The notes under the pieces were generated by a model. That model was not told the DNA's origin. It did not search any database and saw nothing but the letters and a program-made list of their open reading frames with translations. 64,000 nt of DNA from Desulfomonilia bacterium (GTDB taxonomy: Bacteria > Desulfobacterota > Desulfomonilia > UBA1062): contig CAXXDQ010000007.1 of NCBI GenBank assembly GCA_963664325.2, positions 192,001 through 256,000 of the forward strand, written 5' to 3'. The translations under genes were made by a program, and so were the position numbers. Every line of letters begins with the position of its first letter. Within the stretch, counting starts at the first letter, position 1. Positions 13,901-63,557 of the stretch are shown in pieces.

Positions 13901-14489
13901 ATTCACGGGCCGGGGACTGGGCCTGGCTGCGGTGCACGGGATAGTACGCGGCCATAAAGGCTTCATGAAGGTTTACAGCGAGCCGGGCCATGGCACCACA
14001 TTCAAGGTGCTGTTCCCGGCAGCCAGGTACTCGGTCGTTGAAGATTCATCCCTGAGAGCGGCAGCCCAGAAAAAGGAAGAGGAAATTTTCAAAGGGAGTG
14101 ACACGATCCTGCTTGTTGATGATGAGGAACCGATAAGGACGCTCGGCAGGACCATGCTCGAAAGAATGGGATTCAGCGTGTTTTCTGCCGCCAACGGGAT
14201 TGAGGCCGTTGAAATTTTCCGCAAGTACAAAAATCAGATAGCCTGTATCATCCTTGACCTTACGATGCCGCATATGGACGGCGATGAGACATTCAGGAAA
14301 ATGCGGTTTATAAGGCCGGATATACCGATAATCATGAGCAGCGGCTATAATGAACAGGATGTTGTCAACCGCTTTTTGGGCAAAGGCATGTCGGGCTTTA
14401 TCCAGAAGCCATACCACCTCAGCACCTTGGCGGAGGCGTTGAAAAAAGTTATCACCGGCAGCAAGTCTGGTGACGAAGAAAAAAGATGA
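10966..14489 (+). pseudogene. Hybrid sensor kinase (Cache-HAMP-3xPAS-HisKA-HATPase-REC) split by a 1-nt frameshift near 13640
   Basis: ORF 10966-13647 ends QKGLPR*. The -1 frame continues IEADLLQIHQVIMNL into ORF 13680-14489. The paralog at 14528 reads KELPSIEADVSQIQQIIMNL uninterrupted. Confidence 0.85.
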
Positions 14490-17500: not shown

Positions 17501-17608
17501 GAGCAGGATGTTGTACAGCGCTTCCTGGGTAAAGGGATTTCCGGTTTTATCCAGAAGCCTTACCGCATAAACAGCCTGATGGAAACCCTGAGGAAAGTAC
17601 TTCGATGA
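14528..17608 (+). CDS. Hybrid sensor histidine kinase (Cache-like, PAS, HisKA, HATPase, REC)
   Basis: Two TMs, PAS/PAC repeats, GGIAHDFNNIL H-box, FFSTKFTGRGLGL, VLLVDDEE/ILDLTMP receiver. Confidence 0.93.
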   Translation: MNLKARARERNKGKMENNKNSKEKSDKKFRYILTTIFVLLVIGISITGWLYMVGLRDDEAHRLNQDLKAISELKVQQILNWRKERLGDANLISSSKSIADAVKSYLSNPYSTQAQEEMLDWMTVMQKSNNYKALILYDLNFKPRISVPSKPDTADKSIRNIITDTLNSGKPTISDLHFNDSGKIVIDLVAPVYNPYSKLSDGGGTPVAAMLFEIDPYTFLYPLIQSWPTTSRTAESLLVEMKGNNVFYLNELRHIKGTALRFEKPLDEPRLPAAMALREIKEVTEGIDYRGVPVIAASKSISGTPWIIIAKEDKSEIYKPLYRRLVMTGIIIVIVLIASMLVMGVIWSQYKANILKQNIKERERTESVLRESETKFHLLADFTQDWDYWIDNDNRFVYTSPSCERITGYTPEELIQNPALLIDMVHPYDQEKMAGHVKDNHRSDRISEIEIRIIHKDGSIKWMEHHCKPIYNAESVNIGRRASNRDITDRKQTEELLERERELYIDLVNTQPAGIYRLRVFPPEKWENDAWNSSRTAPYLIEMVNKNFCDILGIDQEVFKANPGIILDLVHSEDKAEFTRKNEEANVRLAPFLWEGRLNIEGKTIWVHFESILRQVENGDVLWTGVLYDITGRIHQEEERRKIEEGLQQTQRLESLGVLAGGIAHDFNNILTAILGNAELALMDMSESAPSRPRLEAINKASLRAAGLCRQMLAYSGKGRFVIRPVDLSEVVEEMSRMLEVSISKKTILNFRLAKELPSIEADVSQIQQIIMNLIINASEAIGEENNGVIYIATGLIECDRKYLQEAQLTKDLEEGYYVYLEVADTGCGMDRETIARIFDPFFSTKFTGRGLGLSAVQGIVRGHKGAMKIYSEPGKGTTFKVLFPMTDTLPESISGEQTEEKYWKSSGTVLLVDDEEPIRILGRILLERMGFDVLTASNGKEALEVFSANKDKIRCIILDLTMPHMDGEQTFRELRLMEPGIPVIMSSGYNEQDVVQRFLGKGISGFIQKPYRINSLMETLRKVLR

Positions 17609-45888: not shown

Positions 45889-46791
45889 TTATGTGGTGTG
45901 AATACCACGTTCGATAAATATTCGTTCATATGCCTTGAGCTGTTCGGGCTTCATGAATTTCTTCATTTTTTCCGGGATAAGGCGTGCTCCTCCAAATTTC
46001 TCCAGTTTGTACGGCCACAACGGATTATATGCAAGCAGCCTGACCCTGTCAAAGCCGCATGAGATAAGAAAATCAGCGACTGCATTAAGGTTAGAGTCAG
46101 TATCGGTAATACCTGGTACAAGAGGTACCCTTGGAAGTATTTCCTTGTCTTTCATATTGGAGAGTACCCTGAAGTTTTCAAGGATATTCTCGTTACTTAC
46201 TCCACAATATCTTTTATGTTCATTGTCGTCTAAAAGTTTGATGTCAAAATATATTTCATCAAGTTTAGGATATATTTTTTCAAGAAATGAGACCATATCA
46301 AAAAAGCCGCAGGTTTCAAGCAAGGTGTGTATCTTGTGCCTTTTCAATTCTGTCAGAAGCTCAGAACAGAAATCCATGAACATGGTCGGTTCTCCACCTG
46401 AAAGAGTAACACCGCCGCCGGATGTATCAAAAAAAGGTTTGTCATTTACAACACACGCCACAATATTTTCAATACTCATGCTTTTTCCTACAATACCGAG
46501 TGCGCCTGTAGGGCAGATGCTTGTGCAGGTAAAACACTCCAGACACCTTGAACGATCAACTCTATGTTTGTCATCATAGGTTATTGCATCTTGGCTGCAA
46601 ATCACTGCACAGGCAAGGCATTTAATGCATTCCTTGCTGTCGAATGAATGTTCGAACCATGGTTTCATGCCTTCCGGATTATGGCACCAGACACATGACA
46701 GGGGACAGCCTTTCATGAAAATGACGGTCCTTATTCCTGGACCGTCATCAAGGGAATTGCCCTTTATTTCGAATATCAGCGGTTTCTTCAT
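45889..46791 (-). CDS. Glycyl-radical enzyme activating enzyme (radical SAM with ferredoxin insert)
   Basis: DDGPGIRT, GCPLSCVWCHNPE, two CxxCxxCxxxC motifs, GGVTLSGGEP. Confidence 0.96.
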   Translation of the reverse strand: MKKPLIFEIKGNSLDDGPGIRTVIFMKGCPLSCVWCHNPEGMKPWFEHSFDSKECIKCLACAVICSQDAITYDDKHRVDRSRCLECFTCTSICPTGALGIVGKSMSIENIVACVVNDKPFFDTSGGGVTLSGGEPTMFMDFCSELLTELKRHKIHTLLETCGFFDMVSFLEKIYPKLDEIYFDIKLLDDNEHKRYCGVSNENILENFRVLSNMKDKEILPRVPLVPGITDTDSNLNAVADFLISCGFDRVRLLAYNPLWPYKLEKFGGARLIPEKMKKFMKPEQLKAYERIFIERGIHTT

Positions 46792-49748: not shown

Positions 49749-49802
49749 ACCTACCCCCTGCACATGATTGTTATACGGTGATAAATGATGCACAATTATC
49801 CG

Positions 49803-49833
49803 ATATTAATTAATATGTGTCCAGATATTTGGA
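49803..49833. promoter_or_regulatory. Candidate TetR operator palindromes upstream of the GRE
   Basis: Perfect ATATTAATTAATAT (49803-49816) and 12/14 TCCAGATATTTGGA (49820-49833). Confidence 0.3.
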
Positions 49834-49901
49834 TTACGGCATGAAAACAAGGTTAGGTTATAAATTTACGCTTGAAGAAAATTGGAATGAGCACCGTAAT
49901 G

Positions 49902-50528
49902 CTACTGCCTGTATGAAAGTATGATGTCCTCGATAATCCTTTCAGCCATCATTTCAATTTCCGGCTCGACCTTTTTTAGTCCATGGCCGTTGCAAAGGTT
50001 AACAACACCATTGAGCAGCATCCATATCTTAATCACATTATACATTATATCATCTTCTTCCAGATAAGGGACTGCATCCTTCATGGCCGAAAAGGCAACT
50101 TCAATGACCTTCATGGCGATCTGCCTTTCCTCCTGAACAGCTTTCTCCATATCAGTGCCTGCATAGTCGATATATCTGGACAAATTCCGGCTGAACATTA
50201 TTTCATAGTAATCCGGATTCTTTATCCCGAAGTCTATGAATATTCTGATGATAGCTTCAAGCCTTTGAAGAGGGTCATTATTATTCCTGAATATCTTATT
50301 GATTATCATATAAAGTTTTTCAAAGCCCCGGGCCTGAATAAGAAGATATATTTCATCCTTATTATTGTAGTAGTTATAGATATTGGCAGCTGTCATACCA
50401 AGCCGTGATGCAAGCTTTCTCATGCTCAGATTTGAGAACCCGTCATTCACGATTATATTGAGAGCAGCCCTTAATATCCTGTCTTTGACGCTTAATATTT
50501 CTTCTGCTTTTCTTGCTGTTTTAGCCAT
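49902..50528 (-). CDS. TetR/AcrR-family regulator
   Basis: ILRAAL...GFSNLSMRKLASRLGMTAANIYNYYNNKDEI HTH. Confidence 0.94.
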   Translation of the reverse strand: MAKTARKAEEILSVKDRILRAALNIIVNDGFSNLSMRKLASRLGMTAANIYNYYNNKDEIYLLIQARGFEKLYMIINKIFRNNNDPLQRLEAIIRIFIDFGIKNPDYYEIMFSRNLSRYIDYAGTDMEKAVQEERQIAMKVIEVAFSAMKDAVPYLEEDDIMYNVIKIWMLLNGVVNLCNGHGLKKVEPEIEMMAERIIEDIILSYRQ

Positions 50529-50549
50529 GACGCACCTTCACATGAAAAA

Positions 50550-52550
50550 TTATTTTAAAATTGCTCCAATCGCGAGATAACCTCCGTTCGCCTTAAGCCC
50601 TATAAGTCCCATCTCAAAGACCGGCAAGTCATTACAAATTGCGGCTATCAATTTGTTGTTATCTTTATTCAGTTCTGTCAGAAGCTCTTTGGCCCTGGCA
50701 TCATCAATTACCAGCGGTGTTTTCTCAAGCCAGGGTTTCATGAGTTCAAGTATCTGGGGCATCAGATTTTTAACAGCTCTTTCGATATCAATGGCTTTTT
50801 CAAGACCAAGCCTGTCTGCAAGATAGTAAATATTGAATTCATTGAGCTTCAGATTGAGTCTGAGATAAGGATTGCCACCCTGAAAAAATACTTGTGTTTC
50901 TACTTCCGTAACAAGATCAATGGCGACTTCAAGCTGCTGGCTAGCATTCATGTAAAGGCCTGTTTTCAGGTTTGGCACATAGAGTTTTATTATCCCGTCT
51001 CTGAAATCAAGGAAAGGCGGTCCGCCAAACACAATATCCGCTTTCATGTCGGCTGGAAGTCCGAGGTCGGGCAGAAGCTTTCCGACCTCAAGGCTCAGAC
51101 CGAACCCGGCCTCGTTCAATGCCGCGAGCATGCCGTTTATCGAATCGGCTGATACTGCCAAAGCCATATTATCATCAATCTTTACTGTATCAAGAGCTTC
51201 AGACAGGGTTATTAATGGCGGAAGGCTTATCACACCATTATCCTTACCCGAATTTGATTTTTCTCCAAGACCTGCCATTAATCCGATATTATCTGTTGCT
51301 CCCGTGAATTTTTCCAGTTCCGCGCTAATCGATAAATCCCTTATGCCGAGAATCGAATCAATGAGCTCATTTTTCCCTTTTTCAGGCAGTATGCTTTCAT
51401 CAATAGTAATCGGAGGAATGTTGGTTATTATAAGACCAAGACCTTTCTTATTGACTAAAGTGTTTAGCGCATTGCTGACAATACCCGCAAGCCACCCCTT
51501 AACCGGGAGCTTCATGTAGTATGTATCGGGGCTCAACCCGAGGCCGTCGAGGAAATTTGTCAGTATGATCATGCTGGGGATGTCGGCTTCAAGTTCTTTA
51601 AGGTTGAGATCAAGCGATGAGATTTTCACGACTAATCCATTGATATCCTTTATCCCCATCTTGAGAGAAAGGTCTGCTGAAATGGCATATAGTTCAAGAA
51701 CAACCTTTGTATCTGCAAGACCACCTGGAAATTTAATGTCGCCAAGACTAATGAATTTAATATCAGCTGATATCTCGATCCCTTTGAGATTCATATCGGT
51801 AAAGAGTCTTGCCGTATCGGCATCTCCTGGTTCATTGGCATATAACTGGTTTATCGATACATCAAAACCTGTTTTGATGTTTATTCCCGTCAGCTTCAAA
51901 TCAGCGACAGCCTTGAATGGTTCGGTGATTTCCACCGTTATATAATGGTCCGTATCAAAGTCCTTTTTGCCGACAGATTCATTGAGGAGGTCAGCTATGA
52001 CAGATGTGAACTCAGTTGGCAGGGCAAGTGTGGAGTTGCCTAATATCACTCCCACCGCATTACTTGATTTTGTTCCGGATGCGACACTTGGCCCCCTTAA
52101 TAGTGAAGTTCTGTCGCGACCAGCATATCCCTTCGCATCAATGGCCGAAGCTTCAATTGCTACAAACGGGCTCGAATCAGAAGGCAGAGGTAGCTCGACT
52201 GAAAAGCTGTTGTCAGAAGAAATATGAGCATCCGAACCATTAACAAGAAGTGAAACAATCTTCTGATTACCATTACTGACGGTCCCTGTGACGACTATGC
52301 TCTGCTGGTCCAAACCTATTACCTTCCCGCTTGAGGGGTATGTTATTCTCACAACAGGTGGAACATATCCCTCTGGATAGTTGATGCTGCCTCCCGGCTC
52401 TTCTCCAGTTGGTCCGGCAGTGTATTCAGTCTGTGGTCTGTAATCCTCGGTACCGATTCCCCCCGAACCTGAACATCCCGAAAGCATGCCCAGCAATATA
52501 ATAAAAAGCACTGTATATATCTTTTTTAAAGTCTTTTCATTGTTCCCCAT
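50550..52550 (-). CDS. Lipoprotein with Ig-like domain and probable LBP/BPI (TULIP)-like region
   Basis: Lipobox LSGC. PVVRITYP...VTGTVS...VNG Ig-like domain. Long amphipathic beta-rich remainder (LAVSADSINGML, PPFLDF). Confidence 0.55.
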   Translation of the reverse strand: MGNNEKTLKKIYTVLFIILLGMLSGCSGSGGIGTEDYRPQTEYTAGPTGEEPGGSINYPEGYVPPVVRITYPSSGKVIGLDQQSIVVTGTVSNGNQKIVSLLVNGSDAHISSDNSFSVELPLPSDSSPFVAIEASAIDAKGYAGRDRTSLLRGPSVASGTKSSNAVGVILGNSTLALPTEFTSVIADLLNESVGKKDFDTDHYITVEITEPFKAVADLKLTGINIKTGFDVSINQLYANEPGDADTARLFTDMNLKGIEISADIKFISLGDIKFPGGLADTKVVLELYAISADLSLKMGIKDINGLVVKISSLDLNLKELEADIPSMIILTNFLDGLGLSPDTYYMKLPVKGWLAGIVSNALNTLVNKKGLGLIITNIPPITIDESILPEKGKNELIDSILGIRDLSISAELEKFTGATDNIGLMAGLGEKSNSGKDNGVISLPPLITLSEALDTVKIDDNMALAVSADSINGMLAALNEAGFGLSLEVGKLLPDLGLPADMKADIVFGGPPFLDFRDGIIKLYVPNLKTGLYMNASQQLEVAIDLVTEVETQVFFQGGNPYLRLNLKLNEFNIYYLADRLGLEKAIDIERAVKNLMPQILELMKPWLEKTPLVIDDARAKELLTELNKDNNKLIAAICNDLPVFEMGLIGLKANGGYLAIGAILK

Positions 52551-52583
52551 TTTGAAGCCTCCTCGACGTTTCCTTCACGAATT

Positions 52584-53975
52584 CTAAAATTTGAATTCTG
52601 CGGAAATGCCTGCTGCAAAACCATAGCCGGACAGCGTTATCTGTTCTCCTGTCTCTGCTTTCGTGTAATCCCTGTCGATTAGGTAATGATACTGAACCAT
52701 TGTCTGTATGCTTATGGGTTTGCTCCAGTATCTGCCAGGCTTGTCCCATCTGTTTTCAGTCCCGATGCTGAATATGTGCTTGTCGTTGTCGAGAAAATTT
52801 GTCGTCCCTGTCTGATCGGGAACAGGAGATTTCCAGAATGAATACCCTCCCCTTACAATCATGTCGCCAAGCCATTTGTTTGAATATACTACACCCTTCT
52901 CCACCCCGGCTCTTATATTAAGTACGTCTTTAAAGGACGGGGACGGATCACTATGAAGCACATCAATATATCCGGACCACTGCATCCATGTAAGGTCTGC
53001 ACTCAACCTGAGATCGCTGTCAAACCTGTATGCCGCACCAAAGGCCCATTGCGAAGGTGAATAATAGTGAGCAAAATGGTGGTTGTAATCAAAAGAGATT
53101 GTCAGAGGCTGACCGTCAGGGTTCTGAGGATTCTGGACCCGGACATCGACATGATTGGTGCCATAGTCATCCATGTAAAGCTCATCCCGCCATGACAGGC
53201 CGAATGAAAGTTTTTCATTAGGTTTTATCTGCACTCCCACAATCGGCGAAACTGAGGCTTTGGTTTTCTGGTCTTCCGCTATATCCCCTGTAACACTGAC
53301 ATATTGAGAATTTCCGTTCGGGCCTAGAAAATCTTTAACAATTTCGTTTATTGCCTGCTCGCTTACATAAACAGGGCCTTTGCTGTTTGTTTCAAGTTCA
53401 AGAAGGATGTTAGCGCTGATACCTAGTGACAGCCATTTTACCGGTTCATATCCCAGACCTGCCACAGCAACAAGCCTGTGCAGATCATCATAATAAAAGA
53501 TATAGCGCTCCTCTTCGGGAAGTTGTGTCCTCCACCAGTACAGGCTGTCGGTCGGGATCAGAAAAGTCCCGCCTAATACAAGAGGAGTATTCTCCAGATA
53601 CTTTGAAATGCCCCTGATGTCAGCGCTGAAATTAAATCCGATATTCGTAACCGAATCCTGACCTGAGGGTGTATGTTTTCCATTTATCGAACTGTCAACA
53701 GTTCCTTTCAGATCAAATGTTGAAATGCCGAATTCGCTGGTTAGACCTATATCCTTGAAGAAGTTAATTCCGGTAAGACCTGCAGGGTTTGTGTATGCCT
53801 CAGATCCGTCAAGGGATGACGCAACCCCAGTGCCTGCCATTGATTGAGACCTTATACCAAGTCCGCAGATTTCACCCATCGAAGCATAAAGCATTGCTGG
53901 GAATATTGTATTTGAGATCATGAAAATAATTAATATGGAGGTCTTTTTCACCATGCCTAGAACCTCACCTTCCAT
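52584..53975 (-). CDS. FadL/OmpP1-family outer-membrane transporter
   Basis: GIRSQSMAG...AYTNPAGL, WMQWS, SPVPDQTG.TNFLD, C-terminal Phe. Confidence 0.88.
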   Translation of the reverse strand: MEGEVLGMVKKTSILIIFMISNTIFPAMLYASMGEICGLGIRSQSMAGTGVASSLDGSEAYTNPAGLTGINFFKDIGLTSEFGISTFDLKGTVDSSINGKHTPSGQDSVTNIGFNFSADIRGISKYLENTPLVLGGTFLIPTDSLYWWRTQLPEEERYIFYYDDLHRLVAVAGLGYEPVKWLSLGISANILLELETNSKGPVYVSEQAINEIVKDFLGPNGNSQYVSVTGDIAEDQKTKASVSPIVGVQIKPNEKLSFGLSWRDELYMDDYGTNHVDVRVQNPQNPDGQPLTISFDYNHHFAHYYSPSQWAFGAAYRFDSDLRLSADLTWMQWSGYIDVLHSDPSPSFKDVLNIRAGVEKGVVYSNKWLGDMIVRGGYSFWKSPVPDQTGTTNFLDNDKHIFSIGTENRWDKPGRYWSKPISIQTMVQYHYLIDRDYTKAETGEQITLSGYGFAAGISAEFKF

Positions 53976-55342
53976 GTAATGCCAGTGTTCCAGAGGGTTC
54001 CACCATATTTGACTGATATGCCGCTTACATCCTTGGCTACCTCGGAATCAGGCATGTACTGGCATTGTACATGGAAATCCAGGTCCGAATTCTTGAAGCT
54101 GTATCCGGCGCCTCCGCAAATGATATGGGTATCTCCGTCAATATAATTATAAACTCCTGTCTGTTCAGGAACCGGAGTCGGTCTGTACATGTAGCCGGTT
54201 CTCAATTTTATTTTTTCGGTAACAGAATATTCAAGACCAAGTTTCGGATTCAAAGTGTCTTTGAACTCGGACTCCGGCGTTTCAAGATGAGGTCCTTCAT
54301 ATCCGGACCACTCGGAATACGTAAGGTCAAATGAAGCTGTGATTCTTGATCCCTTTAATCCTATCCCGAACGTATATTCTCTGGGAGAAAAAAATGAATT
54401 GTGAGCAAGATCTACCTTTATGACCGGGATTTTATCCGCCAGAGTCTGGTTGACATTGCCATTCTTGTCCACAGGCAGGATATACAAGTACTGATAGCCG
54501 GTGGAATCAGCGCTTATCTTGTCTCTAAAGCTGAAGCCCAGGCTGAGCCAGTCTATGGGCTTATAGGTAAGACCTGCATAAAGAGCGGCATTGAGAACCA
54601 GTTCCCTGTTTACTGCGACCTTTGCATCGGCGCTGTTGCTGACATCAATATTAAGTTCTTCAATAAGTTTACTCAGGTCGCCGATGTTGTCAACAACGTC
54701 ATTGGTATCAACCTTGAGCGTTATATGGGTATCCGTATCCATAAGTCTGAGCAGGAGCTCGGAACCGATGCCGAGTGAGAACTTATCACCTATGTTCTTG
54801 GAGAGGGCTGCATAAACACCAAGGCCTTTGGCCACATCGTTGTAAACAGGAAAAAAGTAATCTCTTGCAGTTTCCGGGATGTCGATATCAAGTATCGCCT
54901 GTGTGGGAACAAAACAGGAAATGCCGAACATAAAACCTTTCATGTGATGTTCAAGTCTGCCGAGATTCATCACGAGCCCTGCGGTAATGGCTTTTACATT
55001 CTCATCATCTTTTACCACACTACCAGCGCTGTCACTTATTTTAAAGTCAGGCATGACATACATTGCGCCGATGCCTAACTGAAGCCATTCATCTTTCTTC
55101 AATGCGAAATTAAGGCCTGATGGATTGTAGTAAGCGGCAGTGTAATCATCGGAAATCGCCGTCATTGCGCCGGCCATTGAAGAGGCCCTTGAGGAAAGTC
55201 CAAGAAAAGATGCCGTATCAGCTACGGCATCTGTCTGGAAAAATAAAACAAGGAAAAGGGGCAAAAATACGTATTTAAAATAACCGAATAAATCTGGCAT
55301 CCTGTGGCACATACTGTTAACCATGAGCGCAGCCACATACAC
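53957..55342 (-). CDS. FadL/OmpP1-family outer-membrane transporter (start uncertain)
   Basis: SRASSMAGA...AAYYNPSGL, YSEWS, TPVPEQTG.YNYID, C-terminal Phe. Confidence 0.9.
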   Translation of the reverse strand: MYVAALMVNSMCHRMPDLFGYFKYVFLPLFLVLFFQTDAVADTASFLGLSSRASSMAGAMTAISDDYTAAYYNPSGLNFALKKDEWLQLGIGAMYVMPDFKISDSAGSVVKDDENVKAITAGLVMNLGRLEHHMKGFMFGISCFVPTQAILDIDIPETARDYFFPVYNDVAKGLGVYAALSKNIGDKFSLGIGSELLLRLMDTDTHITLKVDTNDVVDNIGDLSKLIEELNIDVSNSADAKVAVNRELVLNAALYAGLTYKPIDWLSLGFSFRDKISADSTGYQYLYILPVDKNGNVNQTLADKIPVIKVDLAHNSFFSPREYTFGIGLKGSRITASFDLTYSEWSGYEGPHLETPESEFKDTLNPKLGLEYSVTEKIKLRTGYMYRPTPVPEQTGVYNYIDGDTHIICGGAGYSFKNSDLDFHVQCQYMPDSEVAKDVSGISVKYGGTLWNTGITWKVRF

Positions 55343-55654: not shown

Positions 55655-56341
55655 CTAAATCCATCCAAGTATCCCCATGAAAACTATAAGGCATATGAGG
55701 TCAAATCCCAGGATTGATCCAACAGTTATGGCTTTTGCCTTTACTGTTTTCATATCATGGACCCAATATGCAACCAGATAGAACGGGAAATATCCAATCA
55801 GCCAGATTATGAACGGGAACTTGATCCTCCACCATGAATATTCCCAGGTAAGAGCATTCAGTGCATTCAAGATGATTTCTATGATAACGCTCAGCGTGGT
55901 AAAGAATATGATGAAGAACCACCTGTTCGGCATCCCAAGGATTTTCATATTCTTGTCTTCAGGCAGGATTATGGTTGTGGCGATTCCAAGTATCAAGAAC
56001 ATGAAGCATATTTCTATGTTCAGCCCGATAAGGATCAGATATGCGGTATCGCCGCCCGGGGCTCCCCATACTGGGGCATACTGGGTAAAATAGAATACGA
56101 GGCCGTTCCATATTTCATTGAACCAGTCCATTCCCCAGAGTGCAAGACCTGCAAAGACTACGCTCCAATTCTTTTTGGCCACCTGTGTGTGGTATATGTA
56201 AATGACCATTACAAGAAATGGTATAACATACCATTTGAACGTTGCCGGGTCTCTCAGAATGCCGAGCGACTGAATCGAATACTGCGTCATGTTGTCCATG
56301 TTTTTGACAATTGATAGAGCCTGTTCGGAAAATCCGTTCAT
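55655..56341 (-). CDS. Polytopic membrane protein of unknown function
   Basis: About 6 TMs, MDWFNEIWN, IGLNIEI. GGAGG RBS. Confidence 0.8.
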   Translation of the reverse strand: MNGFSEQALSIVKNMDNMTQYSIQSLGILRDPATFKWYVIPFLVMVIYIYHTQVAKKNWSVVFAGLALWGMDWFNEIWNGLVFYFTQYAPVWGAPGGDTAYLILIGLNIEICFMFLILGIATTIILPEDKNMKILGMPNRWFFIIFFTTLSVIIEIILNALNALTWEYSWWRIKFPFIIWLIGYFPFYLVAYWVHDMKTVKAKAITVGSILGFDLICLIVFMGILGWI

Positions 56342-56595
56342 AATAACCTCCCTTATTTAATTGATTTAAATAATTTAATCTATTTTCCCAAAAATAAAAG
56401 ATATAAAAACATGTTTCTCTAATTTTAAAAGTAAATAATGACTTTTTTTTTCAAATGGAAATTGCAGATTCAATCGAATCCTATGTGGGGAATGATTGGA
56501 ATACGCTCTTGGTCTGATAACCTTGACTGTTATTCGTATCCCATTACTATTAAACCAGATTGTTATTGTATTCAAATATCGATGGAGGCACTTTA

Positions 56596-57909
56596 ATGGA
56601 ATGTGATATACCCGATAAACAGGATGCATACGGAAGTATCGGCTTGACGAGGAATACATTCATCAGAACGTCGGTGCTTGCCGCCCTAGGTATTATTGCA
56701 GGGTGTTCGTATGAAAGATCAAACCCTGGAAATATTTCGGAAAATGACTATTCACCTTCACTTTCAGCACCTGACACCCAAAAAACGTTTATCGACCTTG
56801 CTTCGAACATCAATCCCTACGGGCCTGCACCTGAGGCCGTATCGGCAATGAAAGAGCAACTGTTACGGGACGCCCGTCTGTCTGGCATCAACCGCTACCC
56901 GGATTTTATGAGCCTGAATATAAGGGCTTCCGCTGCAAAGCTTAACAGTGTATCACCACTGAACATAGTGCCGACCTGCGGCATATCAGAGGCGGTCAAT
57001 ATCCTGGCATCTGCATTTCTGAATGAAGGTGACGAGGTAATCACATCAGATCCGCCCTTTTTTCTTATGGAGAAAATGGCCCTTGCATGGGGAGCGCATG
57101 TTACAAAAGTGCCGCTAAAAACTGATCATACAACTGATCTTGATGCAATCATAAAAAAGATAGGGGAAAGAACAAGACTCATTTATCTTATGAATCCGCA
57201 TAATCCGGCAGGTACGATCATTAGAACCGATGAATTGAATAGTTTTGTGATGAAGGTAGCAACGAAAAACCTTTTCAGGCATGGAAAAATTGTTGTAGCA
57301 ATTGATGAAGCCTATGGCGACTATGTTACAGATCCCAATTATCACAGAACTCTGACCGGATACATTTCCTTAAATCCTCTTGTCATCCTTCGCACCGCAT
57401 CTTTTGCTTACGGCATGGCAGGCCTCAGATGCGGTTATGCGATTGCAAGAAGGGATCTGGCCGCCGAAATGGACGGCAGCCTGCTGTACTACGTTAATTC
57501 TGCACTTAACAGCGAAGCTGTCGGAAAAATAATCACGGGGCATAAGGGATGGAAACACCCGGAGGGGAACATCAACCGCCTTGCAGAATCGGGCATGATA
57601 GCATCACTTGAACATGGCCAGGAACACATAGTGGCAGTCAGAACGCAAAACAGAAAAAACATGGAAAATCTCTACAAAGAACTTGATTCATCAGGAATAG
57701 AATATATTCCCACCCAGACAAATTTTATCATGGTTAACCTTGGAGACATAACAGGCAAAGAAGTGAAAGAAAGACTTGGCCTTATGAATATCTCGGTGCG
57801 CTCGGGCGATGAATTCCATAACAGGTATGAAAAGTTCATTCGTGTTTCAATTGGGACGGAAGATCAGGTTTCCGCATTTATATCAGCGCTCAGAGAGGTG
57901 CTGCAATGA
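56596..57909 (+). CDS. Exported HisC-fold (class I/II PLP) protein, catalytic Lys replaced by Phe
   Basis: DLASNINPYGP, RYPD, NPHNPAG, DEAY, RTASFAYGMAGLRCGY. TRNTFI followed by lipobox IIAGC. Confidence 0.85.
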   Translation: MECDIPDKQDAYGSIGLTRNTFIRTSVLAALGIIAGCSYERSNPGNISENDYSPSLSAPDTQKTFIDLASNINPYGPAPEAVSAMKEQLLRDARLSGINRYPDFMSLNIRASAAKLNSVSPLNIVPTCGISEAVNILASAFLNEGDEVITSDPPFFLMEKMALAWGAHVTKVPLKTDHTTDLDAIIKKIGERTRLIYLMNPHNPAGTIIRTDELNSFVMKVATKNLFRHGKIVVAIDEAYGDYVTDPNYHRTLTGYISLNPLVILRTASFAYGMAGLRCGYAIARRDLAAEMDGSLLYYVNSALNSEAVGKIITGHKGWKHPEGNINRLAESGMIASLEHGQEHIVAVRTQNRKNMENLYKELDSSGIEYIPTQTNFIMVNLGDITGKEVKERLGLMNISVRSGDEFHNRYEKFIRVSIGTEDQVSAFISALREVLQ

Positions 57910-59249
57910 AAAGCACCATATTTTCGAAAGGGATTTCACGAAGAGATTTCCTAAGGGTAAGTGCAGGAACCGCATCTGTAATAGCATCAGGATTAGCCGG
58001 CATAAGCATTGGGCATGCCTTTCCGCCCGACTGTATTTCAGATAAATTCACACGTATGTGCTACCATGAAAACCCTTTAGGCCCCCATCCTGCTGTTTAT
58101 GAAGTCCTTGCATCCCTAATTAGTTCAAACAGCTTAAGCCTGTATCCTTATGAGGGTCAGGAGGAACTGAAGAACTCCATACTTAAATATAACAGGGTAT
58201 ACGGCATTCTCGGCAACGATAATATAGGACTTACTGTTGGTTCTACTGAGGCACTCATGATGTGTGCTTATTCGCTGTTAAACCCAGAGACTTCCGTCCT
58301 GACCGAATGGCCCACATACGGCATCTTCTTTACACGGGTGGAGCAGATGGGCTCAAAAATAATAAAGGTTCCCCTTGTCAGGCAGCCTGATGGAAGATAT
58401 CTGCCGGATCTGGAATCGATGAAGAAACAACTACGCGAAGATCCATCGATACGCCTTGTGCATTTTAACCTGATAAACAACCCCATGGGCTCATACATGA
58501 AAAAATCGGATTTCGATGCTTTCGTAGCCTATGCGGACGATAATTTTCCTGACACTGTCATAATTGCCGATGATTCAGACCCCGAATTCAGGGAACGCAT
58601 CCCGGATGATGAGTTTCCGAAGCCCATCGAACACGTCATTAAAGGAAAAAATGTCATTCATATTCAGACCTTTTCACACATTTTCGGCATAACCGGCCTA
58701 AGGCTGGGGTATTATATAGCTCCTGTACCGCTGGCAAAAAGGCTTGAGACGAAGCGCATATACAACGGTGTGAACATATCCGCCATAATGGGAGGCATTG
58801 CATCCATGCAAAATGCAGTTGAGCAGATAGAGCGGTCATATGAAAATAACCATGAAGGCAGGCTCTGGCTTTATTCCAGCTTTGAGAAGATGGGCATCCC
58901 ATATCTAAGATCACACGGGGCATATATAATGCTTGATAACGGCATTCAAAGCTCCATCATTTATATTCTCATGGCTGCACAGGGTGTGATGATACGCCAG
59001 GGCAGCGAATGGGGTCTTGATACATGGATTCGAGTAAACCCGGGCCAGCATCCGGTTGAGAATGAAATCTTTATAAAGGCCTTAAAAAATGCCTGCCAGA
59101 AATCTAAATCGTTTAAATCTCTGAAAGATGTACTGAATACCCCTGAAGGGATCCAGGGGCTTAAAAACGGTTATGAAACAGGTATGCTGCCTGATATGAG
59201 AAACCTGGATGACAATGAAAGGATGGCAGTGTTTAAAAATCTTCTTTAG
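57906..59249 (+). CDS. Tat-exported HisC-fold protein, catalytic Lys replaced by His
   Basis: SRRDFL Tat motif, HENPLGP, NNPMG, DDSD, QTFSHIFGITGLRLGY. ATGA-coupled to the upstream paralog. Confidence 0.85.
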   Translation: MKSTIFSKGISRRDFLRVSAGTASVIASGLAGISIGHAFPPDCISDKFTRMCYHENPLGPHPAVYEVLASLISSNSLSLYPYEGQEELKNSILKYNRVYGILGNDNIGLTVGSTEALMMCAYSLLNPETSVLTEWPTYGIFFTRVEQMGSKIIKVPLVRQPDGRYLPDLESMKKQLREDPSIRLVHFNLINNPMGSYMKKSDFDAFVAYADDNFPDTVIIADDSDPEFRERIPDDEFPKPIEHVIKGKNVIHIQTFSHIFGITGLRLGYYIAPVPLAKRLETKRIYNGVNISAIMGGIASMQNAVEQIERSYENNHEGRLWLYSSFEKMGIPYLRSHGAYIMLDNGIQSSIIYILMAAQGVMIRQGSEWGLDTWIRVNPGQHPVENEIFIKALKNACQKSKSFKSLKDVLNTPEGIQGLKNGYETGMLPDMRNLDDNERMAVFKNLL

Positions 59250-59317: not shown

Positions 59318-59896
59318 ATGATCAAACGGATCGACCATGTATCCATTGCTGTCAGGGATTTTGAAAAGGCCAGGAAGTTTTTTGAAGGCATTCTCGGGGC
59401 AATACCAGGCAGCCGCGCAATGGATGATTCGATGAAATACAAATGGCAGATATTTTCTGCAGGCGATCTCAGCAGGCTTGAGATCATATCACCCACAGGG
59501 AAAGGCAGCTTTCTTGAGGGTTTTCTGAAAGACCGCGAGGGAGGTGTTCATCATATAACATTCCAGACGGCGGACCTGAAAAAGGCGAAGACTGCCCTGC
59601 ATACAGCCGGTATTCCATATTTCGGAGAAAACGAGTACGCCGGCGGGGTGTGGAAGGAATTATTCATCCACCCTAAGGATTCATTCGGAGTGCTTGTACA
59701 GATAGCCGAGTTTACGCCTGACGACTGGCTGGCACCCGAGGTGCGCATGCCGAAAGGCGAAAAGTTCGAGGTTGAAGAAACCCTAGACGGCTGCTTTATC
59801 CGTTTTGCTCACCCCGGCGGCGGTAATGTAAGGCTCAAGTTGAATGACGATGAAGCCCGGCTCTTAATCGACAGGCTGAAACGGGCGATATCATAA
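59318..59896 (+). CDS. VOC-family protein (methylmalonyl-CoA epimerase-like) with C-terminal extension
   Basis: RIDHVSIAV, LEIISP, GGVHHITF, FIHPKDSFGVLVQIAE. Confidence 0.85.
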   Translation: MIKRIDHVSIAVRDFEKARKFFEGILGAIPGSRAMDDSMKYKWQIFSAGDLSRLEIISPTGKGSFLEGFLKDREGGVHHITFQTADLKKAKTALHTAGIPYFGENEYAGGVWKELFIHPKDSFGVLVQIAEFTPDDWLAPEVRMPKGEKFEVEETLDGCFIRFAHPGGGNVRLKLNDDEARLLIDRLKRAIS

Positions 59897-59927
59897 ATAT
59901 ATGTATGGTGTTAAAGATACTGTGTCA

Positions 59928-61082
59928 TCACCATTTCTGGAAGCAATGTTCGGCAAAGCCCAGGATATTTTTAACATCGAGAACCGTCCCGTCGTCAAGC
60001 ACGACTGTCCCGCTTAATCTACCTCTGGGCTGTATGGTTTTCATGTAATAGAACCCGAGGTTTATAAACTGTGAATGGTCATAATCGCATTCCATCGTTA
60101 TATCGAACCTGCCGTCGGCGCTCTTGAAATGCCACGGCTGCATGATGTCGTCCTCATTATATTCCCATTTAATCGGGCCCATTTTGTGGACAATGCCGTC
60201 ATATACTATGGCGCTTGCCTGGAAGCGCGATGCGTTCTCCTCGCCCCATCCGAAGTTGAAGCCCAGAACCTTGCCGTTAACCTCGCCTGAAGCCACGGCC
60301 CAGCCCCACTCAAATTCCTCGGGCCATACCCCCCTGCCCCAGTCAAGGACAGCATAGGAATCCTTTTCGTCGAAGACATATTCCTTACCCTTGATGTTGA
60401 CGCTTCCCGAAGCCCTTTTTGCAAAGACCTTGTCCGTATAGAAGAAGCTCAAGTGCTCATCATCGAAAGGTGCTGACGTAGCCAGGGATTCATCGGCCGG
60501 GTCGTCCTGTATCTTTATCTCACCCGTTATTTCAGGCCCGAAAATGGCGGATTTCGGGAAATCAAAGGCAAGCGTCTTGATGCCGTCCTTATATGTAAAT
60601 GCGGAATATACTCCGCCCTTATTAAAGATATTGTCTTCATAGGGATTAAGCGGTGGTGTCAATGCATCGGTGTTGAACAGGATGCGCATGTTGGAAAAAT
60701 TCTCGCCGGTCTTATAGTCAACAAGCGATACTGTTATCAGGACCATCCATGTGATGTCGGCCATGGTGATTTCAAAGCTGTATTCGGAATTATAGACATT
60801 ATAAAAATCCCATTCTTTGAGCCGCTTCTGCTGGTCTTTAGTAAGATTTTCCTTGTTGTATATAATAAGCGGATGGCGCGCCCATCCCCAGGCTGCAAGC
60901 GACCCGTCATTATTGAGAAGAGGTGTTTTTCCTTTTATCTCCCATTCATTATGCAAAACAGGCAAGGTCTCCTTAGTCTGTTCCACTGCCGGAGCATTTG
61001 CCGGGTCATCACCGCTGGACCCGCCGCAACCTGTAACCACAAGAATGGCGAACAAGCCTGCCATACAAAGCAAATTTTTCAT
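59928..61082 (-). CDS. DUF2804-family lipoprotein
   Basis: Lipobox VTGC, GWARHP, RLKEWDFY, AVLDWGRGVWP, GFAEHCFQKW. Confidence 0.78.
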   Translation of the reverse strand: MKNLLCMAGLFAILVVTGCGGSSGDDPANAPAVEQTKETLPVLHNEWEIKGKTPLLNNDGSLAAWGWARHPLIIYNKENLTKDQQKRLKEWDFYNVYNSEYSFEITMADITWMVLITVSLVDYKTGENFSNMRILFNTDALTPPLNPYEDNIFNKGGVYSAFTYKDGIKTLAFDFPKSAIFGPEITGEIKIQDDPADESLATSAPFDDEHLSFFYTDKVFAKRASGSVNIKGKEYVFDEKDSYAVLDWGRGVWPEEFEWGWAVASGEVNGKVLGFNFGWGEENASRFQASAIVYDGIVHKMGPIKWEYNEDDIMQPWHFKSADGRFDITMECDYDHSQFINLGFYYMKTIQPRGRLSGTVVLDDGTVLDVKNILGFAEHCFQKW

Positions 61083-61156
61083 ATCCAACCTCCTCAATTT
61101 AATGACTGACCAATTTCTATTTGGAACATTAATAAATATAAAATCAGTTTATCATA

Positions 61157-62212
61157 TTATTTATCAGTAAAAAACCCTGGAAATGGTTGCGGCAGCAGGT
61201 GGTAATCAACCGAAGCCGCCTGGATGCTGAGATCAACAGAGTTGTAGGTGTGCCAGTAAAGTATGGATCTGCCGTCGTATTGTTTCGATACAAGCATATC
61301 GAGTACCGCTGCAAAGGTCTTCCCGGTATAGGTCGGTTCAAGATTGATGTTCTCTCGCTCTTTCATGATGCTGATGGCACTCATGCCTTCGGGTGTCGGA
61401 TAACCGTAGCCTTTGCCAATGTATGATTCGATTACCTCATATCGGCTTTGATCAATGGATAAATTCTTGTCTATCAGCTTGAGGGTCCTCTTGATGAGCG
61501 TTGTTACTGTTCCTTTCGTGCAGGCCGGGAACGGACCTATATGTGATTCCGTGACCCTAACGCCTATAATCCTGCTTTTGATTCCGGCAAGCTGAACACC
61601 AATCGATAATCCTGCCATTGTCCCGTTAGAACCGAGCGGACATATGATTACGTCAGGCTCAGGCAAAAGACCCTGCCCGATTTGCTTTTTCAGTTCAAAC
61701 GCCGCATTTACAAAACCGAGCGTGCCAATGGGTGATGAACCGCCGGCAAAGAGCGGGTATGACTTACCGGGCCGTAATCGCCGAAGAATGAAAAGCTCGA
61801 CGCCTGCCCTGATAATGCTTTTTGCATAAATCATATTTGCACCGAACTTATAAAACAGCAGCATGTTCCGCTTCACATATTCATTTACCGGTTGTTTAAA
61901 AAGAAGGAGCGTGCATTTAAGCCCGAGCTTTTTTACAAATACAGCTGTGGCCAATCCGTGGTTGGTGCCGATGCCCCCCATTGTAATTATATGGTCGCAG
62001 CCTTTTTTTATAGCATCGGCAAGAACGAACTCAAGTTTTCTCACCTTGTTGCCGCCGTATTCAGTCGAGCTTTTATCATCGCGTTTTATCCACAACCGCC
62101 CATCTCCTGTATTTTTTAACATATGCACGGGCGTCGGAAAGTTGCCGAGTTCTATCCATGGGAGTTTTGTTTCAAGTTCCGGGTAGGATTGGAAAATTTC
62201 CGGCTTATTCAT
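61157..62212 (-). CDS. D-cysteine desulfhydrase/ACC deaminase/cysteate sulfo-lyase family PLP enzyme
   Basis: PTPVH, WIKRDD, GGNKVRKLEF, GTNHGLATA, LEPTYTGK. Confidence 0.88.
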   Translation of the reverse strand: MNKPEIFQSYPELETKLPWIELGNFPTPVHMLKNTGDGRLWIKRDDKSSTEYGGNKVRKLEFVLADAIKKGCDHIITMGGIGTNHGLATAVFVKKLGLKCTLLLFKQPVNEYVKRNMLLFYKFGANMIYAKSIIRAGVELFILRRLRPGKSYPLFAGGSSPIGTLGFVNAAFELKKQIGQGLLPEPDVIICPLGSNGTMAGLSIGVQLAGIKSRIIGVRVTESHIGPFPACTKGTVTTLIKRTLKLIDKNLSIDQSRYEVIESYIGKGYGYPTPEGMSAISIMKERENINLEPTYTGKTFAAVLDMLVSKQYDGRSILYWHTYNSVDLSIQAASVDYHLLPQPFPGFFTDK

Positions 62213-63557
62213 AAAGGTCATTTCTCCCTTTGATATCCTCGACATCGATACCTCTTTTCAAGAGACTCATCTTTCGCAATTCATAATATGCCAAACCGGT
62301 TACTGCAAAGAGCAGGAAAAACACTATCTTTTTCCAGTCCTTGAGGTCTGCAATTATTACAAGACTGAAGAATCCCACCATAATAAACCCGATAACAGGG
62401 CAAAGCCATATCCAGAATCCCTTCAGTTTGAAATACGCCTTTTCATAGGCCTCCGGATAAAGTCTTGGCAGTTTCATGGATGCTATCATTACAGGTACGA
62501 AAATTATCATTCCGCCGAGTGCCGAATAGGATGCAAGCGTTTCAATCGGGAGTTTCAGTGCCACGCCCAGCACTGAAAATATCCATATGATTGTCAGAAG
62601 CACATGTGCGGTGCCGAACCTTTTGTTGATGCCACCCATCCATGCCGGCGCAATGCCGTCTTTTATGATCATTAAAAGGCTTTTTGTCCCGATTATGAAC
62701 AGCGCATTGAGTGTTGTCAGGATTGCCAGGATGGCCCCGCATGAGATGAAAAATATAAAACCAGCATGACCGCATACGGATTTGCTTACCACACCCAGAG
62801 GATCTTTTACACTTGCAAGCTGGTTTAACGGAAGTGCGCCGGTTGTCGCTACCGCGACAAGAAGGTAAAGAACCGTCACTATAGGAAATGCAATAAACAA
62901 CGCCCTGGGAATAACCTTGCCCGGTTCCTTAATCTCGCCACCCAGCTCTATTATCCCGTTTGAACCCATATAGGTGAAAGTAAGCAGCGCAGTCCCGAGA
63001 AGGAGCTTCAGTATGCCTTTGTCAAACATGCCTGCAAAGTTTTCCGGATGGAAGTTCTCAAGACCCCTGACACCGAAAAAAACCATTGCCGCAATCAGGA
63101 GGATGACCATTACCCCCTGAATCCATGCGGCAAGTTCAATCCCGAGCAGGTTTATAATAAAGAAAAATGTAAGCAGCCCGATGGCTGCTAGTTCGATATT
63201 GAGCCCCGGCATGAACAATGAGGCATACTTCGCACAACTTATTGCATACAACGGGATCTGCCCGAAAAAAGAGGCGAGAATGTATACCCATATACCTGTA
63301 AATGCAAGTCTGGGCGATACCATGCGGCTCGGGTATTTGTAGTTTGCACCTGTACAGGGCATTGCCGAACCCAGCATGGCAATGGGGAGAACGCTTATGA
63401 TAACAGGTATGACTGCCAGTGCATAGGCAATCGGAAGCGCCGCCCCTGCAATTCCCAGAACGATTTCTGTGAATACGAACACACCTCCTCCGATTGTAAA
63501 ACCGACGGCAATGAATGTCACTGTCGGAAGACCAAGGACTCTTTTAAGTTCAGGCAT
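62205..63557 (-). CDS. APC-family amino acid permease
   Basis: LKRVLGL, GFTIGGGVF, ELGGEIKEPGKVIPRA, about 12 TMs. Confidence 0.92.
   Translation of the reverse strand: MPELKRVLGLPTVTFIAVGFTIGGGVFVFTEIVLGIAGAALPIAYALAVIPVIISVLPIAMLGSAMPCTGANYKYPSRMVSPRLAFTGIWVYILASFFGQIPLYAISCAKYASLFMPGLNIELAAIGLLTFFFIINLLGIELAAWIQGVMVILLIAAMVFFGVRGLENFHPENFAGMFDKGILKLLLGTALLTFTYMGSNGIIELGGEIKEPGKVIPRALFIAFPIVTVLYLLVAVATTGALPLNQLASVKDPLGVVSKSVCGHAGFIFFISCGAILAILTTLNALFIIGTKSLLMIIKDGIAPAWMGGINKRFGTAHVLLTIIWIFSVLGVALKLPIETLASYSALGGMIIFVPVMIASMKLPRLYPEAYEKAYFKLKGFWIWLCPVIGFIMVGFFSLVIIADLKDWKKIVFFLLFAVTGLAYYELRKMSLLKRGIDVEDIKGRNDLYE

What the first reader, a model, noticed from the sequence alone, without database searches (positions are those of the whole stretch)
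56596..59249. Tandem exported HisC-fold proteins both lacking the Schiff-base lysine (K to F, K to H)
Seen: the canonical RTFSKxxGLAGLRxGY reads RTASFAYGMAGLRCGY (TTT at 57403) and QTFSHIFGITGLRLGY (CAC at 58677). These are 3- and 2-nt changes from a Lys codon, in intact coupled ORFs, so a single-base error is unlikely. One protein has a perfect Tat motif (SRRDFL). The other has a degenerate Tat motif (TRNTFI) plus a lipobox. Known: this Lys is essential for transamination, and Lys-to-His occurs in the PMP-dependent dehydratases ColD and E1. Inference: a periplasmic heterodimer doing non-canonical B6 chemistry, or B6/amine-binding pseudo-enzymes, possibly co-exported.
Basis: partly seen in the sequence, partly recalled or inferred. 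Interest (0 to 1): 0.75.

Follow-up and report, generated by a model that had tools for sequence, protein, structure and literature searches.

The report
Exported lysine-free vitamin B6 enzyme pair
Two neighbouring genes make exported relatives of a common vitamin-B6 enzyme that have both lost the lysine such enzymes normally need, and their relatives suggest the two pair up to form one rebuilt, histidine-based active site whose reaction is not yet known.

Summary
Gene A (56596-57909) has Phe and gene B (57906-59249) has His where HisC has its Schiff-base Lys. Neither gene is decaying (dN/dS about 0.09).

The two proteins are not equivalent. B founds a small family with His in 48 of 48 sequences. 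Its own cofactor pocket is invariant and rebuilt (Asn37 to His, Tyr187 to Asp, Lys214 to His). A's own site wanders (Phe 16, Lys 15, Thr 5, His 3, Gly 1 of 40), while the segment that reaches into the partner's site (GxNRYPDF, Tyr55*) is invariant in A and variable in B.

A sits beside B in 9 of 12 genome loci and is fused to it in Actinomycetota. A predicted A/B complex scores 0.92 against 0.00 for the best control, though this may reflect likeness to solved homodimers.

Best reading: a Tat-exported, lipid-anchored heterodimer with one composite, lysine-free B6 site doing ColD-like His chemistry. The substrate is unknown and cofactor binding is not shown. It is not a member of the HisC, PtaA or ColD families.

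The parts
56596..57909 (+). Gene A (P0001, 437 aa): HisC-fold lipoprotein with Phe270 at the Schiff-base position; proposed anchoring subunit that supplies residues to B's site
56584..56588 (+). Shine-Dalgarno-like GGAGG before A's ATG
56647..56706 (+). A signal peptide: degenerate twin-arginine motif TRNTFI (18-23), hydrophobic stretch, lipobox IAGC (Cys37)
   Evidence: lipobox-type Cys in 28 of 29 full-length non-actinobacterial A rows (27 by pattern, 1 by eye); true RR in more distant relatives
56884..56907 (+). A segment G97-x-N-R-Y-P-D-F104 holding the Tyr55* equivalent (Y101) that reaches into the partner's site
   Evidence: G, N, R, Y, D, F each 17 of 17, P 15 of 17; A 93-103 touch B 263-264
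57403..57405 (+). TTT (Phe270) at A's Schiff-base Lys position
57538..57579 (+). A-specific insertion loop (315-328) with invariant Trp319 and Arg328, just before the second partner-facing element (HisC Pro242-Tyr243)
   Evidence: W 17/17, R 17/17; A 317-319 and 321-330 in the interface, R328 with B 264-265
57906..59249 (+). Gene B (P0002, 447 aa): Tat-signal HisC-fold protein with a rebuilt, invariant cofactor pocket and His258; proposed catalytic subunit
57936..57953 (+). B twin-arginine motif SRRDFL
   Evidence: TAT_signal below cut-off; RR in 43 of 44 B rows with a whole N-terminus
58017..58031 (+). Predicted signal-peptidase site and conserved mature N-terminus A|FPPD (38-42)
   Evidence: x-x-A|hydrophobic-x-x-D in 45 of 45 rows that carry the RM motif, 11-13 residues before it
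58065..58067 (+). His54 (HisC Asn37 position), B-specific
   Evidence: H 22 of 22; controls N 98 of 99
58569..58580 (+). D222-D-S-D225: pyridine-binding Asp kept; HisC Tyr187 replaced by Asp225
   Evidence: D 48 of 48; controls Y 120 of 120; ColD has D-N-C-E and E1 D-C-C-D here
58677..58679 (+). CAC (His258) at B's Schiff-base Lys position

Best explanation
A and B fold together in the cytoplasm into a fold-type-I heterodimer and leave through Tat. A's lipid anchor then holds the pair on the outer face of the cytoplasmic membrane. Only one of the two possible sites works here. B supplies the pocket: Asp222 (pyridine N), Asn192 and Asp225 (O3'), Tyr138 (stacking), Gly112/Ser113/Thr255/Ser257/Arg266 (phosphate), and Arg364/Arg376 (anionic end of the substrate). 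A completes it from across the dimer with Tyr101 and its Trp319 loop. PLP/PMP is held without a covalent link, and His258 acts as acid/base at C4', as in ColD. The likeliest chemistry is a self-contained PMP/PLP cycle (half-transamination plus elimination or deamination) on an extracytoplasmic amino- or keto-acid-like anion, not histidine biosynthesis. A's own site is dispensable and is closed by Phe270 in this lineage. Shown: the residues, their conservation, gene adjacency and fusion, purifying selection, the fold. Modelled: the A/B interface. Inferred: export, cofactor binding, catalysis, reaction class. Rough odds: one-site heterodimer 0.75, B6-dependent catalysis 0.6, ColD-like reaction class 0.4.
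For: (1) Complementary conservation, (representatives under 70% identity: A 17, B 22). Sixteen own-pocket positions are invariant in B 16 of 16 (background 13%) and in A 3 of 16 (background 8%). Partner-facing positions are invariant in A 8 of 12 and in B 0 of 11. The three such positions named in PMC4703992 (Tyr54, Pro245, Phe246) have commonest-residue counts of 17, 14, 10 of 17 in A and 12, 7, 6 of 22 in B. (2) A lies beside B in 9 of 12 genome loci. In-frame A-B fusions occur in L007, L012/P0351, P0208 and P0354. No third gene is shared across lineages. (3) The predicted complex scores 0.92 against a best control of 0.00, a mark reached by 116 of 157 solved complexes and 2 of 215 mismatched pairs. 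Runs agree in at least 80% of contacts and partner pLDDT is 91. A Tyr101 touches B Thr263/Gly264, and A 327-329 touch B 264-266. (4) dN/dS is 0.08-0.10 for A and B against 0.04-0.08 for five neighbours. (5) ColD and E1, the known His-for-Lys enzymes, also have an acid three residues after the pyridine Asp (D-N-C-E, D-C-C-D). Lys-type ArnB has His there and 120 of 120 HisC-like controls have Tyr. (6) No conserved Lys lies near the site in either family. A's Lys320 is K in 6 and R in 7 of 17. (7) Tat export of PLP-loaded enzymes is known (PtaA, PvdN; PMC6206403).
Against: No cofactor binding, activity or substrate is shown, and one search reported no PLP contacts. The complex pass may come from likeness to solved HisC homodimers, and A2 and B2 homodimers were not among the controls. 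Nine of the 12 partner-facing positions were picked after I saw the alignment. Much of A's pocket decay comes from 5 actinobacterial representatives. Outside them A keeps Arg222 in 12 of 12 and Lys in 8 of 12 representatives, so many lineages may have two live sites. B lacks an adjacent A in L008 and L011 (L005 ends 309 bp upstream), and those two B copies keep RYPDF, so B can probably homodimerise. B keeps the partner-facing Tyr in 34 of 48 rows. An exported enzyme holding PLP non-covalently risks losing it. The ArnB control is one sequence. dS is near saturation for the window pairs, and A in the L004/L009 pair has dN/dS 0.26 against 0.087 for its B.
Confidence: 0.5

Rival explanations
1. 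B's pocket has become a metal site. His54, Asp225 and His258 (with Glu55 or Glu227) bind a divalent ion, either chelating a PLP aldimine or replacing B6 altogether, with the old phosphate cup binding a phosphorylated substrate for hydrolysis or elimination.
For: Three positions around the Schiff-base spot changed together to His, Asp, His and are 22 of 22 invariant; Glu55 and Glu227 are also invariant. Their closeness in space is recalled from fold-type-I structures, not measured. Metal-assisted PLP chemistry exists in D-threonine aldolase (PMC6411801 passage).
Against: The pyridine-binding Asp, Asn157 equivalent, stacking aromatic and whole phosphate cup are all kept, which fits a B6 ring. 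ColD has His plus an acid at the same two places and has no iron-sulfur cluster. No model coordinates were available to measure geometry.
Confidence: 0.2
2. A non-catalytic extracytoplasmic binding or sensing pair for B6 vitamers (PMP, PNP) or pyridoxyl adducts.
For: No Lys in either chain here. The phosphate cup and pyridine Asp are intact, and A is membrane-tethered like a solute-binding lipoprotein.
Against: No transporter or signalling gene is shared across lineages. B keeps both substrate-anchoring arginines (21 of 21 each) and a polar His rather than any bulky residue at 258, which binding alone would not need.
Confidence: 0.11
3. Two separate homodimers (A2 and B2) act in sequence on one extracytoplasmic substrate, and A2 has become a Lys-less accessory in this lineage.
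For: A keeps Lys in 15 of 40 rows. B occurs without adjacent A in L008 and L011 and keeps RYPDF there. The complex model did not test homodimers.
Against: Reciprocal conservation of own-pocket and partner-facing residues. A-B fusions in which A has lost Lys, Arg222 and Asn157 yet keeps Tyr55* and Trp319. A copies with no RR motif (L010, P0349, P0353, P0356) that would need a partner for Tat export.
Confidence: 0.1
4. The free alpha-amine of B's mature N-terminus (Phe39), exposed only when signal peptidase cuts at A|FPPD, forms the resting aldimine in place of Lys, so export switches the enzyme on.
For: x-x-A|hydrophobic-x-x-D at a fixed 11-13 residues before the RM motif in 45 of 45 rows, Phe in 38. 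The signal and cleavage site are kept inside all four fusions.
Against: Residues 40-42 lie in the A/B interface of the model, which could explain the conservation. Lys-bearing 3LY1 has AF at the aligned place. Keeping the signal in fusions is also explained by export. The control set mixes families and is not a fair control.
Confidence: 0.08
5. Decaying paralogues or a sequencing artefact.
For: Loss of a catalytic residue; A's site is variable.
Against: Intact frames, conservation across phyla and dN/dS about 0.09.
Confidence: 0.01

Closest known systems
Histidinol-phosphate aminotransferase HisC and aminotransferase subfamily I-beta (TIGR01141; 3GET, 4R2N, 1FG3)
   Same: Fold (TM 0.86-0.89 by target length for the top hits); pyridine Asp, Asn157, phosphate cup and Arg335 kept; databases name both proteins HisC.
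   Different: No Lys214 in either chain; B has Asp for Tyr187 and His for Asn37; export signals; below the family cut-off (218 and 139 bits against 276.55); proposed heterodimer.
ColD, E1 and SpnQ nucleotide-sugar 3-dehydratases (DegT/DnrJ/EryC1/StrS family)
   Same: His in place of the Schiff-base Lys (PMC8987622); an acid three residues after the pyridine Asp.
   Different: Another branch of fold type I (profile match only 52%, misaligned at the motif; no DegT Pfam hit). Those act on NDP-sugars as dimers of one gene product; no sugar-nucleotide genes lie near A/B. The resemblance is convergent.
Eukaryotic serine palmitoyltransferase SPT1/SPT2 (LCB1/LCB2)
   Same: Fold-type-I heterodimer with presumably one active site and a Lys-less partner (PMC6148460).
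   Different: SPT2 keeps the Lys; here the putative catalytic chain has His and the partner's Lys is optional. Different family and location.
PtaA and PvdN, Tat-exported periplasmic PLP enzymes of Pseudomonas
   Same: Tat export of a folded PLP-fold enzyme; PtaA model NF051461 matches both proteins (PMC6206403).
   Different: Far below cut-off (123 and 82 bits against 500). PvdN needs its Lys for export and PtaA is called a normal transaminase. Single genes, no lipoprotein partner described in the passages read.
Engineered aspartate aminotransferase K258H
   Same: Shows a class I scaffold can keep catalytic activity with His at this site (title seen in the reference list of PMC8405696; details recalled).
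   Different: A laboratory mutant without the accompanying pocket changes.

Membership tests
HisC (TIGR01141) | Score above the curated cut-off | tested here: not met
   A 218.2 and B 138.9 bits against 276.55
HisC (TIGR01141) | Schiff-base Lys214 | tested here: not met
   Phe270 and His258
HisC (TIGR01141) | Class I/II PLP fold with Asp184, Asn157, Arg222, Arg335 | tested here: met
   (structure predicted for B only)
HisC (TIGR01141) | Tyr187 at PLP O3' | tested here: not met
   Kept in A (Tyr240), replaced by Asp225 in B, 48 of 48
HisC (TIGR01141) | Cytoplasmic, his-pathway context | tested here: not met
   Export signals; no his genes among the neighbours scanned
ColD/E1/SpnQ 3-dehydratases | His at the Lys position | tested here: met
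   B 48 of 48; not met for A here (Phe)
ColD/E1/SpnQ 3-dehydratases | DegT/DnrJ/EryC1/StrS family sequence | tested here: not met
   No PF01041 hit; hhalign 52%
ColD/E1/SpnQ 3-dehydratases | NDP-sugar pathway context | tested here: not met
   None among 12 window proteins and 29 locus proteins scanned
ColD/E1/SpnQ 3-dehydratases | PMP-dependent elimination activity | not testable with these tools
   needs an assay
PtaA (NF051461) | Score above cut-off | tested here: not met
   123.2 and 82.1 bits against 500
PtaA (NF051461) | Twin-arginine signal | tested here: met
   B SRRDFL; A degenerate; by pattern only, export not shown
SPT1/SPT2-type one-site heterodimer | Two paralogous fold-type-I chains forming one dimer | tested here: inconclusive
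   Model 0.92 against 0.00 but likeness to homodimers not excluded; fusions and adjacency
SPT1/SPT2-type one-site heterodimer | Catalytic chain keeps the Lys | tested here: not met
   B has His

The most novel reading that the evidence does not exclude
An exported B6 enzyme with no lysine at all, in which the resting Schiff base is made by the alpha-amine of B's mature N-terminus after signal-peptide cleavage, or is replaced by a His54/Asp225/His258 metal site chelating the pyridoxal aldimine. The enzyme would be armed only after Tat export, or would be a natural metal-pyridoxal catalyst on an aminotransferase scaffold.
Probability: 0.2. Interest if true: 0.93.

Novelty: new variant of a known kind. 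Interest (0 to 1): 0.72.

Why it matters
The Schiff-base lysine is among the most conserved residues in B6 enzymology. The natural His-for-Lys enzymes I found described are the sugar 3-dehydratases, on another branch of the fold. This looks like an independent, old invention of a lysine-free site on the HisC scaffold, under purifying selection in deltaproteobacterial lineages and Actinomycetota, and hidden under the label 'histidinol-phosphate aminotransferase'. It comes with a natural series (A with Lys, Phe, His, Thr or Gly; separate, lone-B and fused forms). That series makes two questions directly testable: what lysine-free pyridoxal catalysis can do, and how a homodimer turns into a one-site heterodimer. 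It also points to undescribed B6 chemistry outside the cytoplasm.

Tried and rejected
Compensating lysine: no Lys column near the site in A or B. B's two partly conserved Lys (89, 154) sit in a helix and a strand away from the motif. A's loop Lys320 is not conserved and is not named in the modelled interface. PLP contacts were not reported, so this is an alignment result, not a 3-D one.

Shared pathway genes: an all-against-all comparison of 12 loci plus the window found only the A/B family common to all. An FAD-linked oxidase is shared by L007 and L012 only. Context therefore gives no substrate.

Uninformative runs: a single-sequence fold of the fusion P0208 gave pLDDT 42.5. The ESM Atlas returned only generic Aminotran_1_2 clusters. 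The promoter/terminator scan was at chance level (8 found against 8.7 expected; 3 against 3.5). A first IQ-TREE run did not finish; FastTree and a smaller IQ-TREE run left A-B sisterhood unresolved.

Not checked: cluster membership and source names for ten relatives could not be looked up, so six A/B pairings rest on equal contig lengths. Metagenome and viral contig collections stayed unchecked. No search for longer proteins was run, so the fusion count is a lower bound.

Literature: searches for such a family gave nothing describing it (0 papers; 44: 16; 54: 7; 61: 8; 84: 1). The library lacks most subscription journals. No supplements were read.
Full report
OBSERVATION. Two intact ORFs lie at 56596-57909 (A, 437 aa) and 57906-59249 (B, 447 aa), overlapping by ATGA. 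Both match Aminotran_1_2. HisC is their best NCBIfam model, but both fall below its cut-off (218 and 139 bits against 276.55). They are 28% identical to each other (107 of 378). The Schiff-base Lys214 of E. coli HisC aligns to Phe270 in A (TTT at 57403) and His258 in B (CAC at 58677). B begins with SRRDFL; A has TRNTFI and the lipobox IAGC.

FAMILY B. One search gave 87 hits. The top 39, including the query (37% identity or more), all have His. A profile search of 1.84 billion representatives put 12 B proteins on top, with a drop from 304 to 257 bits below them. Of the other 136 new proteins that belong to neither family, 134 have Lys, one His and one Ala (three Lys read by eye). In the pooled alignment B has His in 48 of 48 rows, against Lys in 119 of 120 controls drawn at random from 304 HisC-like hits. 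Some B rows are near-duplicates; the frameshifted L012/P0351 copy and locus copies already present as proteins were left out. Among 22 representatives under 70% identity, all 16 own-pocket positions are invariant. The pocket is rebuilt, not eroded: Asn37 to His54, Tyr187 to Asp225, Lys214 to His258, with new invariant Trp135, Arg144, Gln254, Thr263 and Trp369. The pyridine Asp, Asn157, phosphate cup, Arg322 and Arg335 are kept. The AlphaFold2 model (pLDDT 84.6) matches HisC structures. RR is present in 43 of 44 whole N-termini, followed by a conserved A|FPPD-type site in 45 of 45 rows.

FAMILY A. The 16 closest sequences (66-100%) all have Phe, but the next relatives have Lys. Over 40 rows the position holds Phe 16, Lys 15, Thr 5, His 3, Gly 1. 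A and B are each one clade (100/100). The Phe group is sister to Lys-bearing P0018 (99/93), and the His and Thr/Gly groups are separate branches. With Lys in nearly all outgroups, this means at least three losses. Whether A and B are sister paralogues is unresolved. A is invariant elsewhere: G97-x-N-R-Y-x-D-F104, Trp319 in an A-only insertion, and Arg328 (17 of 17 each). In the solved I-beta enzymes the Tyr54 and Pro245-Phe246 elements come from the other subunit (PMC4703992, Fig. 6 legend), and these A segments align to them. B's matching segments vary (Tyr 12 of 22). Nine of my 12 partner-facing positions were chosen after seeing the alignment, and A's pocket decay is strongest in five actinobacterial representatives.

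THE PAIR. One scan of 185,579 species genomes found 12 loci with B (44 pattern matches, 12 confirmed). A is upstream in 9: L001 (cut by the contig end), L002 (Phe), L003, L006, L010 (Lys), L004, L009 (His; an IS200-like gene between), and L007 (Gly) and L012 (Thr), the last two in frame with B. No A was seen in L005 (contig ends 309 bp upstream), L008 or L011, and the last two keep RYPDF in B. P0208 and P0354 are further A-B fusions. The fusion linkers keep B's RR signal and AFPPD and carry a further short hydrophobic stretch before it, possibly a membrane anchor replacing A's lipid (inference). Internal Tat signals are a known class (PMC13673990). No third gene follows the pair across lineages. 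dN/dS from window, L001 and L002 is 0.08-0.10 for both genes against 0.04-0.08 for five neighbours, with dS near saturation. A in the L004/L009 pair is higher (0.26 against 0.087 for B).

MODEL OF THE COMPLEX. A(60-437) with B(39-447) and two PLP scored 0.92 against a best control of 0.00. That mark was reached by 116 of 157 solved complexes and 2 of 215 mismatched pairs; runs agree in at least 80% of contacts and partner pLDDT is 91. A 93-103 and 317-330 pack on B 261-266, the loop that follows His258 and carries the phosphate-binding Arg266. This is the canonical fold-type-I dimer, so the pass may be from likeness. Homodimers were not tested and no PLP contacts were reported.

MECHANISM. The pattern is what a one-site heterodimer predicts: B conserves what faces its own pocket, A conserves what faces the partner's pocket, and the second site (A's pocket plus B's reaching segments) decays, most fully in the fusions. 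No conserved Lys is available from either chain. The described His-for-Lys enzymes ColD, E1 and SpnQ use the His as acid/base on PMP, and ColD regenerates PMP from glutamate (PMC8987622; PMC10440746 passages). ColD reads D-N-C-E and E1 D-C-C-D after the pyridine Asp, like B's D-D-S-D, whereas Lys-type ArnB reads D-A-A-H (one control). B is not of that family, so two matching changes suggest convergence on similar chemistry. I therefore propose a Tat-exported, lipid-anchored heterodimer holding PLP/PMP non-covalently and running a His258-based half-transamination plus elimination or deamination on an anionic substrate (0.5). Rivals are a His54/Asp225/His258 metal site (0.2), a binding or sensing pair (0.11), two homodimers (0.1), an N-terminal amine replacing Lys (0.08) and decay (0.01). 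The substrate is not identified.

KNOWN KINDS. It works most like ColD at the active site, like SPT1/SPT2 in architecture (PMC6148460 passages), and like PtaA/PvdN in location (PMC6206403 passages). It fails a defining test for each family and for HisC. Searches found no paper describing the family; the library lacks most subscription journals. Papers seen: passages of PMC13673990, PMC6206403, PMC9309667, PMC6148460, PMC6411801, PMC10440746 and PMC8405696 (reference title only); passages plus one section of PMC4703992 and PMC8987622. No supplements were read. Roles given to HisC positions 37, 83-84, 211 and 213 and the spatial closeness of His54, Asp225 and His258 are recalled, not from a call.

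VERDICT. A real, conserved and apparently undescribed variant. Interest 0.72. The host is probably a Desulfomonilia-type deltaproteobacterium (label on P0013, 66% identical to A), although the syntenic loci L001 and L002 are labelled Bacteriovoracaceae.

Noticed in passing
window 55655-56341 (-): 228-aa membrane-like protein divergent from gene A, no Pfam match, 95% identical to its L002 counterpart with dN/dS 0.04; not seen beside A/B in other lineages.
   Followed up: partly
window 45889-55342 (-): Glycyl-radical enzyme (1001 aa, about 220-aa N-terminal extension before the PFL domain) with an activase-like gene, TetR regulator, a 666-aa lipoprotein-like protein without a clear family and two tandem FadL-like porins; syntenic in L002.
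   Followed up: no
window 59318-63557: Glyoxalase/methylmalonyl-CoA-epimerase-like gene after B, then on the other strand a DUF2804 protein, a D-cysteine-desulfhydrase-like PLP enzyme and an APC permease; shared only with L001 and L002.
   Followed up: partly
window 10966-14489 (+): A PAS-type hybrid histidine kinase seems split into ORFs 10966-13647 and 13680-14489, judged by eye against the intact neighbour at 14528-17608.
   Followed up: no
L004 5013-5645 and L009 9286-9933: IS200-like (Y1_Tnp) gene inserted between A and B; A has His at its own site in this lineage and a higher dN/dS (0.26).
   Followed up: partly
L007 2595-4373 and L012 6777-8207: An FAD-linked oxidase lies next to both actinobacterial A-B fusion loci; a possible substrate clue for that lineage.
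   Followed up: partly
P0305 and P0246: Unrelated HisC-like proteins without signal peptides that have His or Ala at the Lys position while keeping DEAY/DEAF; sporadic Lys loss outside the A/B families.
   Followed up: no
P0211, P0215, P0217, P0257: Lys-bearing HisC-like proteins with a Tat-like signal and an extra C-terminal domain of about 90 aa resembling secretion-sorting or FlgD-type domains (label recalled, not tested).
   Followed up: no
L003, L004, L006, L009, L010 gene A C-termini: A copies with Lys or His often end in an aromatic tail (such as YYGY, WWGY, YHGI) that the Phe-type copies lack.
   Followed up: no
L001 and L002: NCBI labels these Bacteriovoracaceae, but they are syntenic with the window and their A protein is close to one labelled Desulfomonilia.
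   Followed up: no
L012 about 10580: Frameshift inside the B half of the fusion; may be an assembly error.
   Followed up: no
P0218: 603-aa HisC-like protein with an exact internal repeat, probably an assembly artefact.
   Followed up: no
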